From the human T2T-CHM13v2.0 reference genome, Homo sapiens, in assembly GCF_009914755.1 (NCBI RefSeq), contig NC_060925.1: 64,000 bases of DNA. One strand, written 5' to 3'. Under the pieces are notes generated by a model, which searched no databases, was not told the DNA's origin, and worked only from the letters and a program-made list of their open reading frames with translations. The position numbers and the translations under genes were made by a program. This document shows, piece after piece, positions 49,292-54,560 of this stretch (position 1 is its first letter; every line of letters starts with the position of its first letter).

Positions 49292-51502
49292 GTTTTTTTT
49301 TTTGTGATAACAGATCAATTTTAATTCTAGTACCTGAAGCTATACAAGGGTATGCTCTATAAACTTCATGGGACTGTTGTACACACTTGATAAAGTGACA
49401 ACCGTGCAATACCACTTAGCATCTCAAAATCAGGAACATACTATTGAATTGCTTAAATACAATCCACAGAATTAAAAACAAAATCAGATGCCATCCACAG
49501 TTATACTAATTATCCATTAAAAGCTTACACTTAATACTTGAAATAACAATCAATATCTAGCAGGGAATACTGAAAGTGATTTCAGAGTCTCATCCTGTTG
49601 TACTCTGTTGGGAAGGTTTCTTGAGTAGATGTGTGACTGGCCAAAGATGGGTACAACCAAGACCAGACCAGCAAGTAAAAGTTCTACCACAGTTTCTGTA
49701 GTTTCCACTTGTTTTTCTTTGTCAGTTAAAAGTGAACAGTGAGAATTAAATACTTATCTTTACATATACACAAGGTATGCTATGAAAGCGTATCTGCTTA
49801 CAAACATATAAAAATATTTGTTAACTAGTTTGATAAGAAAATAATGTATAAAAGTATATAGCAAAAACATTAATCATCTCTGACCCCAGAAAGATCAATT
49901 CCATATTTTATATTACAAACAAAAACAGTTTTAGTTTTTTGAATCCCTTACCCAGAAATACTTGAAAAGGAAGACAGACAGAAATTATTCCTTTTTACCC
50001 TTAGCGTGGCTGTGAAAAAGAGTTAAATTAAAAAACCAAGTACACTCAAATATCTAAGTCCTAAATGAGTCCAAATATTTGACCACGTAGAATATTACCA
50101 TCTTCAAGAGTAGGAGCAGTAACACAGGCTTTTATGAGCAGTTTTTAATCCATAAATACAATAGGCATTTGGTATTTTGGCCACCAGAAAACAAAAGTTG
50201 TAGTATAAGTAAAGGTCTGAGATGGTTCACTTTTGTAGATTCAATTCAGTGTATTTAAGGTTAACAAAGGCTGACATTGAAATGTTTAAAGATAGGCAAA
50301 AATTCACATTAAAAAAACCCTATATTTCTATTTAGAGTAACAGTAGGCAGTGTGATTCCAAAAGTTAAAAATTATTTCACAACCTGTAGCTTCAGCTTGG
50401 CAAACAGCTTAGATTCCAAAACTGATTCATCTCTATTAAAATGTAAGCACTTAAAAAAAGAGCATGTCTGTGTATATAGACATATATTTTAAAGGAATCA
50501 GATAATCTTTGAAGCAGCCTTAGTGTTTCCTTTAAGTTTGTCTGGAAATGACCATTGTATTAGCTTCACAGAAAGGACTAGCCAGCTTCTTGGTCTAAGG
50601 CTAACATGGTGATCATTTGTCTAAGGCTAGAAAGGTACCAACAAGATGTAAACTGAGGAGAGGAAGAGAAGATGAGGGCTTTTCCTGGCAGTTGGTAGCT
50701 AAAACTGAAGGGATTCTAGAAAATGACACAATGGCAGCCTTTCTTGTCTTTTTCTTTCCGTGTTGGTTCTGGTGAAGGAGGACATTCCTGCTCTTGAAAT
50801 TTCCTGATAACCCGGACAAGTTCATGGAAAGCTTGATCTACATTCATCCTAATCTTTGCTGATGCCTCCATGTATGTTACCTTAAGTTGCCGTGCTAACT
50901 GCCGTCCTTCTTCCTGTGTTACCTGTCTTTGATGATCCAGATCTGCTTTATTACCAATTAAAATCATTGGGAACTCATCACGATCCTTTACTCTGAGAAT
51001 CTGTCTTTGAAACTTATAGATTTCTTCAAAACTGCCTCTATCTGTGACTGAAAAGACCAACAGGAAGCCCTCGCCAGTCCTCATATACTGTTCTCTCATG
51101 GCTCCAAGCTCTTCTTGTCCTGCTGTATCCAAAATATCTAGCCGGGCTGCTCTGTCATCTATCACACACTGCTTTGTGTAAGAATCTTCATTGGTTGGAT
51201 CATAATCCGTTACAAAATAGGACTCCCAACTTAGGAAACAAAACATTTGTAATATGATTGAAGACTCCTGCATGCCTCCTCAATAATATTCCCCTCTCTC
51301 CTCCCCCAGCACCAAGAGGTAATCAATATCCTGAATTTGGTATCTGTCATTCTCATGCATTTATACAACATTAGTAATCATATGATAGTATTCCTAAGCT
51401 ATGTTTTGGAGAGGACACCACTGCAAATCTTCAGCCCTATACTAGCTTTTATCGGTAGCCATCAATTGCAGTTTTAATAGAAATACAAATACATCAAGTG
51501 TC
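49292..51502 (-). pseudogene. RRAS2P1: Processed RRAS2 (TC21) retrocopy with a non-canonical 5' leader; open 185-aa ORF 51273-50716
   Basis: Intronless [10 protein letters not shown]...KKGCHCVIF*, about 1.4-kb 3'UTR, ATTAAA (49325-49320), polyA 49303-49293, 14-bp TSD TGTTCTTTAATTTG (49278-49291 / 51503-51516). Lacks the exon-1 P-loop. Symbol from recall. Confidence 0.95.
50778..50797 (+). CDS. SCP2: Coding part of a candidate SCP2 alternative terminal exon, antisense to the RRAS2 retrocopy: (G)GHSCS*
   Basis: Polypyrimidine tract 50738-50759, first downstream AG at 50776-50777, phase-compatible with the exon 11 donor, TGA at 50795-50797. Agrees with my recollection of a short SCP2 isoform ending in GGHSCS. 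Confidence 0.72.
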
Positions 51503-52083
51503 TGTTCTTTAATTTGTAAAGAAAATTTGTTTTCTAGCGTGACACCCTCAAGGTACCGTATCTGTATGTAAATGTTGTGCCCAATGCTACACAGACATTA
51601 TTTTAAAACTATTTTCTGCCTTTGGTAAATAGACTAAACTGTTTTCTTTATTCCTCAAAAGAATTAGATCATACTTCAGTGTTGATTTTGTTGCTAATGG
51701 GACATGGAGATGTCTGGATGATAATAAATATTCCTGTGGTATGGTCACTGAAGCCTTTAAGAGTTATGCTGTAGTTTGTGTGTAAAGAAGTGACTTAAAT
51801 CCTCCTTTCAGACAGCTTCCTTACGCATATAGGAAACCTCTGTTTCATTAGGAGATGAATATGATATTTCATTTTAGTTGTTCTTGTTGACATACAACTT
51901 TTTTCTCTTCTGAAATAGCATGTTTTTATTATAATTTGCTTGATTGCCATTATTAGATATTTTTGTCATGCCATCCACTGAAATACTCAGAAATCATGCT
52001 TTATAGTAACAATATAATTTTTCATATCTATATTTGTTATTAAAATTTAGATCTAATTTTTATACAATAAAATGCACAGTTCT

Positions 52084-54560
52084 GCCTCTCAGAACCTTCC
52101 TGCTGCCACATTTGCACCTTGCTGCTCTAGCCTCTGGGGTGCATTCCATCCTTTCAGCCTGCAACTAGCAGAGAAAAAAAGTTACATATTTTCTTGCCCC
52201 ATGCATACCTTGAGGCGAGCAAAAAAATTAAAATAAATTTTAACCATGAGGGAAATCGTGCACATCCAGGCCTGTCAGTGTGGCAACCGGATGGGTGCCA
52301 AGTGCTGGGATGTGATCAGTGATGAACGTGAAATCGACCCCACCAGCACCTAACATGGGGACAGCGACCTGCAGCTGGACTGTGTCTCCATGTACTACAG
52401 TGAAGCCATAGATGGCAAATATGTTCCTTGTGCTAACCTGGTGGATCTAGAACCTGGGACCATGGACTCTGCTAGCTCAGGCCCTTTTGGCCAGGTGCTT
52501 AAACCAGACAACTTTGTTTTTGGTCAATCTGGGGCAGGCAACAACTGGGCCAAAGGCCACTACATAGAGGGGGCCAAGCTGGTTGATTCAGTTGTAGATG
52601 TGGTGCAGGAGGAGTAAGAGAGCTGTGACTGCCTGCAGGGCTTGCAGCTGACCCACTCAATGGGCTCTGGAATGGGTACTCTCTTTATCAGCAAGATCCG
52701 AGAAGAGTGCCCTGATTGCATCATGAACACCCTCAGTGTGGTGCCTCCACCCAAAGTGTCTGACACCGTGGTCGAGCCCTACAACATCACCCTCTCCATC
52801 CATCAGTCGGTAGAGAACACTGATGAGACCTACTGCATTGACAATGAGGCCCTCTATGACATCTGCTCCCGCACTTTGAAGCTGACCACACCAAACTATG
52901 GGGACTTGAACCACCTTGTCTCAGCCACCACAAGCAGTGTTACCACCTGTCTCCACTTCCCTGGCCAGCTCAATGCTGACCTCCGCAAGTTGGCAGTCAA
53001 ACTGGTGCCCTTACCACATCTCCACTACTTCATGGCTGGCTTTGCCCTCTCACCAGCTGTGGAAGCTAGCAGCATCGAGCTTTCACAGTGCCCAAACTCA
53101 TCAGGTAGGATTTCAATGCCAAGAACATAATGAGACCCCTGCCACAGCTTATATCTCACCGTGGCTGCTGTCTTTGTGGATGGATGTCCATGAGCAGTTG
53201 CTCAACGTGCAGAACCAGAACAGCAGCTACTTTGTGGAGTGGATCCCCAACAACATCAAGACAGCTGTCTGTGACATCCCACCTCATGGCTTCAAGATGG
53301 CGGTCACCTTAATCGGCAGCAGCACGGCCATCCAGGAGCTCTTCAGGTGCATCTTGGAGCAGTTCACTGCCATGTTCCCCTGGAAGGCCTTCCTCCACTG
53401 GTACACAGCTGAGGGCATGGATGAGACGAGAGTTCAACAAGGCTGAGAGCAACATGAACGACCTCGTCTCTGAGTATCAGCAGTACCAGGATGCCACCAC
53501 AGAAGAGGAGGAGGATTTTGGTGAGGAGGCTGAAGAGGAGGCCTAAGGCAGAGCCCCCATCGCCTCAGGCTTCTCAGTTCCCTTAGCCATCTTACTCACC
53601 TGCCCCTTTTCTCTACCTCAGAATTTGTGTTTGCTGCCTGAAACACAAATCTAGATCTAGAACAGTGCTTAGCACGTAGTAGGCACTCAATAAGTATTTG
53701 TCTGTTGAATGTTTCCTTTCTCTTTCCACTCTGGGAAGCCTAGGTTTCTGCCACTCTGGGTGACCCTGTATTTCCTTCTGGTGCCCATCCCTTCCATCTG
53801 TCCAGTTAATATTTCCTCCTTTTTAAAATCTCCAAGAAGCTGGGTCTCATCCAGATCTCATTTAGAACCAACTGGGTTTTGAAAGCCCATGTGGATAATG
53901 GCCACCATCCTAAGCCCAAAGCGAAAGATGGTAGAAGGTGGCAGGTAGAAGTCACTGCAAGGAAGGGGATGGGATTTTCCATCCTAAAAGTTTTGGAGAG
54001 GGAAATCCAGGCTATTAAAGTCATAATTTCCAGGTATTTCTATTTTCCATTTCTCAGCTTCAAGAGAGGTGTTAGCAGTATTTTCTCCATTTTCAGTCTC
54101 CCTCCAAGCTCTGCCCTTTGGAGAGGTCTGCCCCACTCTGTCAAGTGGAATCTTTCCCTCTCTGGCTCTACCTCTCTCATATATTGAATTCCTCCCTTTC
54201 CCCTGATTAGAGAAGGGGATCAAGGGGGGAAAGAGATCAGCCTTGGTCCCTAGGCCTCCAGAAATGCCCTCCTAATCTCCACCTTTTCTTAACCCCCAAA
54301 AAGGATTAACATCCCTGACTTTATGTGGGATAGTATATACTGCCACATCAGTGTTTGAGTCATTCCCCAGAGGGAAGGGGAACCCTCCTCCATCTTTTTT
54401 GCAACATCTCCTATCTTCCTTTTGCTGTTGCTTTTTTCCCACTTACACTTGGTTTTGTTCTATCCTACACTACAGATTTCTATTTTGAACTTGCTGCCTT
54501 TTTTCATATTGAAAATGTGACATTGCTCCAAGAGCCAAAAATAAATGTGAATTGGAAAAA
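52084..54560 (+). pseudogene. TUBBP10: Full-length processed class I beta-tubulin (TUBB) pseudogene
   Basis: TUBB 5'UTR, ATG at 52246 (MREIVHIQ), premature TAA at 52351 and 52615, frameshifts, C-terminus [14 protein letters not shown] (TAA 53544-53546), long 3'UTR, AATAAA 54540-54545, 15-bp TSD AAAATGCACAGTTCT (52069-52083 / 54561-54575). Symbol from recall. Confidence 0.96.

What the first reader, a model, noticed from the sequence alone, without database searches (positions are those of the whole stretch)
50738..52090. Antisense RRAS2 retrocopy appears to donate a splice acceptor and alternative last exon to SCP2
Seen: the purine-rich codons of the Ras hypervariable tail (RKEKDKKG) read on the + strand as a polypyrimidine tract (50738-50759). 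The first AG after it (50776-50777, part of an AAG-GAG NAGNAG) is phase-compatible with the exon 11 donor, giving ...[16 protein letters not shown] (50795-50797). Candidate AATAAA signals lie at 51723-51728 and 52066-52071. Known: exons downstream of 11 supply the rest of the thiolase fold, the SCP2 lipid-transfer domain and the PTS1 (AKL). I recall an annotated short SCP2 isoform ending in GGHSCS, so the exon itself may be known. Inference: a young retrocopy created a lineage-restricted, truncated (about 366 aa, or 322 aa without exon 4), PTS1-less SCPx. This could also divert transcripts away from full-length SCPx.
Basis: partly seen in the sequence, partly recalled or inferred. Interest (0 to 1): 0.85.

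Follow-up and report, generated by a model that had tools for sequence, protein, structure and literature searches.

The report
Known retrocopy-derived last exon of SCP2
A backwards-inserted processed copy of the RRAS2 gene inside an SCP2 intron supplies a splice site, six codons and a stop that make a short SCP2 transcript; this was already described in 2008.

Summary
This covers the exon 11 donor after 45657, the pyrimidine tract at 50738-50759, the AG at 50776-77 inside an AAG-GAG, the stop at 50795-97 and AATAAA at 51723-28. The predicted lengths of 366 and 322 aa also hold. RefSeq already lists the exon as 50778-51752. Baertsch et al. 2008 (PMC2584115) list RRAS2/SCP2 as an antisense retrocopy that triggered a shorter alternative transcript. 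They score it present in human and chimpanzee and absent from orangutan, rhesus and marmoset. A 2017 review repeats it.

- The retrocopy runs to 51501, not to the annotated 51223. The extra 278 nt copy an upstream alternative first exon of RRAS2. A 14-nt target-site duplication brackets the insert.
- The 116 nt around the acceptor equal the antisense of today's parent gene, so the splice site arrived ready-made.
- The used poly(A) signal lies in host intron, 222 nt beyond the insert.
- The protein would end inside the thiolase C-terminal domain.

No expression data could be examined here. Verdict: real, ordinary, already known.

The parts
45550..45657 (+). SCP2 exon 11. It ends one base into a codon and its donor GT is at 45658-59. 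It encodes the conserved thiolase His-containing motif.
   Evidence: Pfam Thiolase_C_1 profile positions 66-98 of 144, E 1.9e-4, below the curated cut-off because the piece is only 35 aa.
49302..51501 (-). Processed RRAS2 retrocopy (RRAS2P1), here extended 278 nt beyond the annotated 49302..51223. It copies six parental exons without introns.
   Evidence: six collinear blocks match G000:C11 at 96.8-98.9% identity. Pfam Ras, E 9.5e-47, profile positions 21-161 of 162.
51224..51501 (-). Part of the retrocopy copied from an upstream alternative first exon of RRAS2 (G000:C11:14437094-14437371).
   Evidence: 97% identity over 278 nt; the parental exon is followed by GTGAGT; it abuts the exon-2 block at 51223/51224.
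51503..51516 (-). Target-site duplication, 5' copy (14 nt). One untemplated G sits at 51502 between it and the first templated base.
   Evidence: the longest common string of the two flanks is 14 nt. The parent has C where the retrocopy has this G.
49278..49291 (-). Target-site duplication, 3' copy. It is preceded by an 11-A tail at 49293-49303.
50738..50759 (+). Polypyrimidine tract, the antisense of the purine-rich codons of the RRAS2 C-terminal tail.
   Evidence: Pyrimidine fraction at -40..-3 is 0.76, the highest of the 10 acceptors compared. At -20..-3 it is 0.56, the lowest of the 10.
50776..50780 (+). Acceptor AG (50776-77) and second AG (50779-80) of an AAG-GAG tandem acceptor.
   Evidence: The RefSeq exon starts at 50778 (hub table).
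50778..51752 (+). Annotated alternative last exon of SCP2. 50778-51501 (724 nt) is antisense retrocopy. 51502-51516 is the extra G plus the duplication. 51517-51752 is host intron.
   Evidence: Hub RefSeq table. Window 51502-52090 had no other match in the genome.
50778..50797 (+). Coding part of the new exon: two bases completing a Gly codon, five codons, then TGA at 50795-97.
51723..51728 (+). AATAAA poly(A) signal, 24 nt before the annotated exon end. A GT-rich run follows at about 51771-51784.
   Evidence: It lies 222 nt outside the retrocopy.

Best explanation
After the orangutan lineage split off, an L1-type retrotransposition put a spliced, polyadenylated RRAS2 mRNA into SCP2 intron 11 in the opposite orientation. 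That mRNA began at an upstream alternative first exon. Read on the SCP2 strand, the purine-rich codons of the RRAS2 tail become a 22-nt pyrimidine tract. The first usable AG after it (50776-77) is in phase with the exon 11 donor. Splicing 45657 to 50778 adds six residues and a TGA. The transcript then runs through 724 nt of antisense RRAS2 and 251 nt of host-side sequence to a pre-existing host AATAAA (51723-28), and it ends at 51752. The product is a polyadenylated short SCP2 mRNA with its stop in the last exon, so it should escape nonsense-mediated decay (inference). It would encode 366 or 322 aa lacking about the last third of the thiolase C-terminal domain, the SCP2 lipid-transfer domain and the peroxisomal targeting tripeptide. 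I think it is most likely a minor, selectively neutral by-product. Shown here: the anatomy, the origin and the ready-made acceptor. Taken from annotation and from Baertsch et al. 2008: transcript support and species distribution. Inferred: the branch point, low usage and lack of protein function.
For: The retrocopy hallmarks are all present. Six parental exon blocks are collinear without introns at 96.8-98.9% identity. There is an 11-A tail and a 14-nt target-site duplication. The ORF is Ras family, E 9.5e-47, starting at profile position 21, so it lacks the P-loop exon. Frame and stop are confirmed, and the ORF is 366, 322 or 365 aa. The stretch 50691-50806 is identical at 116 of 116 positions to the antisense of the present-day parent, so no mutation was needed after insertion. 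The RefSeq exon 50778-51752 matches the predicted acceptor and the first AATAAA (hub table). Baertsch et al. [quoted passage not shown] Divergence is 40 substitutions in 2200 aligned positions (1.8%). In the 1264 positions covered by older chr2 and chr19 copies as outgroup, 11 changes fall on the retrocopy side, 3 on the parent side and 2 are ambiguous; the other 24 differences lie at positions with no outgroup coverage. About 0.9-1.4% on the retrocopy branch fits an insertion after the orangutan split, using ape divergence figures that I recall rather than computed. For minor usage: the -3 base is A, the pyrimidine fraction at -20..-3 is the lowest of 10 acceptors (0.56), and no A occurs between 50737 and 50774, so the branch point must lie 40 nt or more upstream. 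Exon 11 ends at Thiolase_C_1 profile position 98 of 144. A native-proteomics survey observed only the 405-547 SCP2 proteoform and remarks that isoforms ending mid-domain rarely give abundant protein (one passage).
Against: I saw no read counts, 3'-end data or peptides, so 'minor' and 'non-functional' are inference. The lengths printed by Baertsch et al. (332 aa in the table, 338 aa in the text) do not equal the 322 or 366 aa that the sequence gives. Either they are misprints or they refer to a model I did not see. Their Additional File 1 with locations could not be opened. No other primate genome was available here, so presence or absence by species rests on that paper alone, and it had no gorilla. 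The distal pyrimidine tract is the richest of the 10 acceptors at -40..-3 (0.76), so the site may be stronger than the proximal score suggests.
Confidence: 0.9

Rival explanations
1. The short isoform makes a functional protein restricted to African apes. It would be a PTS1-less, truncated SCPx acting in the cytosol, or pairing with full-length SCPx (thiolases are dimers) and modulating it.
For: The stop lies in the last exon, so the mRNA should be stable. Baertsch et al. report the ORF kept in chimpanzee. The catalytic His motif of exon 11 is retained.
Against: The protein ends at profile position 98 of 144 of the thiolase C-terminal domain, which argues for misfolding. The new tail is six residues set by the antisense of a Ras gene. 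No peptide evidence was seen, and the one proteoform survey read lists only residues 405-547 for this protein. An ORF shared by human and chimpanzee is expected by descent alone.
Confidence: 0.05
2. The exon acts at the RNA level. It could work as an intronic polyadenylation switch that lowers full-length SCPx output. Alternatively its 3' UTR, which carries 724 nt antisense to RRAS2 mRNA, could pair with and regulate RRAS2.
For: The exon lies upstream of everything needed for SCPx's 3' half, so each use costs one SCPx mRNA. It holds perfect antisense runs of 166, 109, 88 and 82 nt to the parental sequence. The 2017 review raises RNA-RNA duplexes for other antisense retrocopy chimeras.
Against: Nothing on usage or on RRAS2 levels was seen. 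The proximal acceptor context is weak. The pro-SCP2 transcripts start downstream and are unaffected.
Confidence: 0.04
3. The exon is an annotation artefact: cDNA clones from unspliced pre-mRNA or mis-assigned RRAS2-related sequence rather than a true SCP2 splice product.
For: The exon is 98% identical to the antisense of an expressed gene, so short reads could be mis-mapped.
Against: Baertsch et al. cite 2 spliced mRNAs and 3 spliced ESTs and a reviewed RefSeq. The junction obeys GT-AG and keeps phase. The exon end sits 24 nt after an AATAAA in unique host sequence. Antisense reads of RRAS2 would not carry SCP2 exon 11.
Confidence: 0.01

Closest known systems
RRAS2/SCP2 exon acquisition, Type Ib category 3, in Baertsch et al. 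2008 (BMC Genomics 9:466, PMC2584115)
   Same: It is this very locus: an antisense RRAS2 retrocopy giving SCP2 an alternative 3' exon with new ORF end and 3' UTR, in a shorter transcript seen in human and chimpanzee only.
   Different: The paper's main text, as far as read, gives no anatomy. New here are the true 5' end of the insert (51501) through an alternative RRAS2 first exon, the 14-nt duplication, the identity of the acceptor region to the parent, the host origin of the poly(A) signal, and lengths of 322 or 366 aa against the printed 332 or 338.
HLA-F/RPL23 and KIAA0415/FLJ10324 antisense retrocopy 3' exons (same paper; also Kubiak and Makalowska 2017, PMC5408686)
   Same: The same category: an antisense retrocopy recruited as an alternatively spliced last exon.
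   Different: In HLA-F the ORF becomes longer (442 against 362 aa per the paper). Here it is cut short inside a catalytic domain. Those loci were not examined here.
Antisense Alu exonization (recalled from the literature, not looked up here)
   Same: An A- or purine-rich stretch of a retroposed element, read from the other strand, becomes the pyrimidine tract of a new acceptor.
   Different: Here the tract comes from protein-coding Lys/Glu/Arg codons of a single-copy mRNA retrocopy, not from an Alu poly(A). The result is a terminal exon, not a cassette exon. No activating mutation was needed.

Membership tests
Processed pseudogene (L1-mediated retrocopy) | Collinear copy of spliced parental exons without introns | tested here: met
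   Six blocks of G000:C11 abut in the window at 96.8-98.9% identity.
Processed pseudogene (L1-mediated retrocopy) | 3' poly(A) tail at the end of the parental 3' UTR | tested here: met
   Eleven A at 49293-49303, directly after the last parental base.
Processed pseudogene (L1-mediated retrocopy) | Flanking target-site duplication | tested here: met
   The same 14 nt occur at 51516-51503 and at 49291-49278.
Ras family small GTPase (for the minus-strand ORF) | Match to Pfam PF00071 above the curated cut-off, with a complete G domain including the P-loop | tested here: not met
   The score of 159 bits is far above the cut-off of 21.6, but the match starts at profile position 21 of 162. The P-loop exon is replaced by the alternative first exon. 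It is a Ras-derived sequence, not a complete GTPase gene.
Retrocopy exon acquisition, antisense 3' exon (Baertsch Type Ib-3) | The host-gene exon overlaps the retrocopy on the opposite strand and carries the end of the host ORF | tested here: met
   Of the 975-nt exon 50778-51752, 724 nt lie in the retrocopy, and the stop is at 50795-97.
Retrocopy exon acquisition, antisense 3' exon (Baertsch Type Ib-3) | Spliced transcripts joining host exons to the retrocopy-derived exon | not testable with these tools
   No transcript data are held here. [quoted passage not shown]
Retrocopy exon acquisition, antisense 3' exon (Baertsch Type Ib-3) | The exon is absent from species that lack the insertion | not testable with these tools
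   No other primate genome is held. The paper's table says Pan y, Pongo N, rhesus n, marmoset n. Divergence of 1.8% is compatible.
Thiolase (for the short SCP2 isoform's protein) | Complete thiolase C-terminal domain | tested here: not met
   Exon 10 covers Thiolase_C_1 profile positions 20-62 and exon 11 covers 66-98 of 144. The new exon adds six unrelated residues.

The most novel reading that the evidence does not exclude
The short SCP2 mRNA exports to the cytoplasm a 724-nt stretch antisense to RRAS2 mRNA, with perfect runs of up to 166 nt. It would then act as a trans-antisense regulator of the RRAS2 oncogene restricted to African apes, coupled to SCP2 transcription. Alternatively, the exon would be a tissue-regulated intronic polyadenylation switch that sets the SCPx to SCP2 ratio.
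Probability: 0.04. Interest if true: 0.5.

Novelty: already known. Interest (0 to 1): 0.12.

Why it matters
This is a clean textbook case of how a retrocopy can change its host gene at once. The acceptor, frame-compatible codons and stop were all present in the antisense of the parental mRNA on the day of insertion, and a host poly(A) signal finished the job. That makes it a useful teaching or benchmarking example for young exon birth and intronic polyadenylation. It opens no new question, because the event has been in print since 2008 and the exon is in RefSeq. The small practical gain is an annotation correction: RRAS2P1 should extend to window 51501, with its duplication at 51503-51516.

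Tried and rejected
- The supplementary files of Baertsch et al. 2008 could not be read. Additional File 1 holds the genomic locations and might explain the 332 and 338 aa figures.
- The search for 'RRAS2P1' found 1 paper, a colorectal-cancer machine-learning study seen as a listing only.
- The search for the accessions NM_001007098 and NP_001007099 (both recalled from memory), for ENST00000408941 (recalled) and for the six-residue tail found 4 papers. Passages of two show only that NM_001007098 is listed under SCP2 and that NP_001007099.1 is cited as the human sequence among Hc-DAF-22 homologues. One was seen as a listing only.
- The fourth paper (isoespy, passages) names ENST00000408941.7 among four SCP2 isoforms in liver long reads. 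I could not verify that this identifier is the retrocopy-terminated isoform, so I do not use it as evidence.
- The search for 'SCP2' plus 'intronic polyadenylation' found 1 paper, which concerns only the 405-547 proteoform.
- I considered and dropped the idea that the poly(A) signal is also retrocopy-derived, because the insert ends at 51501-51516.
- I considered and dropped a classical 5'-truncated retrocopy, because the sequence beyond 51223 is another RRAS2 exon.
- No perfect yUnAy branch-point motif is evident upstream of the tract by eye. A TGAC at 50724-50727 is only a guess.
- Splice-site strength was compared only by pyrimidine content, because no trained scoring tables were available.
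Full report
**Observation**

- SCP2 exon 11 (45550-45657) ends one base into a codon and is followed by GT.
- 50738-50759 is an unbroken pyrimidine run.
- The AGs between 50690 and 50800 start at 50690, 50697, 50709, 50718, 50736, 50776 and 50779. 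So 50776-77 is the first AG after the tract, and it forms an AAG-GAG pair with 50779-80.
- Joining 45657 to 50778 gives six residues and TGA at 50795-97.
- AATAAA lies at 51723-28 and at 52066-71.

To test the stated lengths I fetched the upstream genome. I found coding exon 1 at window -15092..-15024 (69 nt, followed by GT) and exon 2 at -688..-631 (58 nt, AG before and GT after). The ORF is then 366 aa with all exons, 322 aa without 8272-8403, and 365 aa from the distal AG. The hub's RefSeq table lists an exon 50778-51752. That is the predicted acceptor, with an end 24 nt after the first AATAAA. Nothing annotated ends near the second signal.

**What the insert is**

The minus strand carries a 187-codon open frame (50716-51279). 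It matches Pfam Ras at E 9.5e-47, but only from profile position 21 of 162.

Searching the window's own genome with 49302-51223 found the parent on contig 11 as five exon blocks at 97-99% identity. It also found older copies on contigs 2 (86-87%), 19 (94%), 7, 1 and 10.

Searching with the sequence beyond the annotated pseudogene end (51224-52090) gave an unexpected hit. Window 51224-51501 matches G000:C11:14437094-14437371 at 97%. This lies 46 kb upstream of the exon-2 block, on the same strand. In the parent that stretch is followed by GTGAGT. So the template was an RRAS2 mRNA starting at an alternative first exon, and the copy is not 5'-truncated at 51223.

The ends of the insert are marked as follows:
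- a 14-nt direct repeat at 51516-51503 and at 49291-49278;
- an 11-A tail at 49293-49303;
- one G at 51502 that the parent does not template.

I read that G, by inference, as the cap-derived extra G often seen on full-length retrocopies. RRAS2P1 is therefore 49302-51501.

**Anatomy of the SCP2 exon**

Of the 975 nt of exon 50778-51752:
- 724 nt (50778-51501) are antisense retrocopy;
- 15 nt are the extra G plus the duplication;
- 236 nt (51517-51752) are host intron.

The poly(A) signal is host sequence, 222 nt outside the insert. Window 51502-52090 had no other match in the genome.

The 116 positions 50691-50806 are identical to the antisense of the present parent. These cover any plausible branch point, the tract, both AGs, the six codons and the stop. 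The acceptor therefore needed no mutation after insertion.

I compared this acceptor with the nine annotated SCP2 acceptors in the window. It has the lowest pyrimidine fraction at -20..-3 (0.56) and the highest at -40..-3 (0.76). Its -3 base is A. There is no A between 50737 and 50774, so the branch point must be 40 nt or more upstream. The AG at 50736-37 would then be too close to the branch point to be used. That last step is inference.

**Age**

The retrocopy differs from the parent by 40 substitutions in 2200 aligned positions (1.8%), 8 of them in CpG context, plus a 1-nt indel.

The older contig 2 and 19 copies served as outgroup and cover 1264 positions. Of the 16 differences there, 11 are on the retrocopy side, 3 on the parent side and 2 are ambiguous. 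The other 24 differences had no outgroup.

This gives roughly 0.9-1.4% on the retrocopy branch. That lies between the per-lineage human-gorilla and human-orangutan figures as I recall them. It agrees with the published presence in human and chimpanzee and absence in orangutan.

**Consequence for the protein**

- Exon 10 covers Thiolase_C_1 profile positions 20-62.
- Exon 11 covers positions 66-98 of 144. At E 1.9e-4 this is below the curated cut-off because the piece is only 35 aa.

The short isoform therefore stops inside the thiolase C-terminal domain. It also lacks the SCP2 domain and the C-terminal targeting signal, which lie in exons beyond the window (established knowledge of SCPx). I expect an unstable protein, but this was not tested.

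**Prior knowledge**

Baertsch et al. 2008 (PMC2584115) was read as passages by term search and as the whole of section 9 including Table 2. [quoted passage not shown] Kubiak and Makalowska 2017 (PMC5408686, one passage) repeat the example.

The printed 332 and 338 aa do not match the 322 and 366 aa given by the sequence.

Searches for the pseudogene name, for accessions, for retrocopy reviews and for intronic polyadenylation found nothing on the function or abundance of this isoform.

**Verdict**

The only additions are anatomical: the true extent and template of the retrocopy, the ready-made acceptor, the host-derived poly(A) signal and the corrected ORF lengths. Whether the isoform matters biologically is open, and I rate it unlikely.

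Noticed in passing
window 51224-51516 and 49278-49303: RefSeq's RRAS2P1 span (49302..51223) stops 278 nt short. The copy continues through an alternative RRAS2 first exon to 51501, with an untemplated G at 51502 and a 14-nt target-site duplication at both ends.
   Followed up: yes
window 50716-51279, minus strand: The retrocopy's reading frame is still open: 187 codons stop to stop. There are 3 amino-acid differences from the parental state in the 168 codons copied from RRAS2 exons 2-6, and no frameshift. It lacks the P-loop exon, so it could not be a working GTPase.
   Followed up: partly
window 49887-50352: Differences from the parent cluster in this part of the copied 3' UTR. There are 16 substitutions in 466 nt, including two adjacent pairs at 49887/49888 and 49979/49980, against 1.8% overall. 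No outgroup copy covers it, so which lineage changed is unknown.
   Followed up: no
window 52086-53837: A second processed pseudogene (TUBBP10, plus strand, per the hub table) starts 570 nt after the end of the RRAS2 insert. The second AATAAA (52066-71) sits just before it. So two retrocopies lie side by side in SCP2 intron 11.
   Followed up: no
PMC2584115, Table 2 and section 10: The paper gives 332 aa in its table and 338 aa in its text for the short SCP2 variant. The genome sequence gives 322 aa (without 8272-8403) or 366 aa.
   Followed up: partly
G000:C2:223161864-223163264, C19:6606495-6606913, C7:101043265-101043527, C1:204627842-204628363, C10:18618927-18619153: Further, older RRAS2-derived copies (69-94% identity) exist elsewhere in the genome. 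The contig 2 copy did not match the alternative first exon.
   Followed up: no
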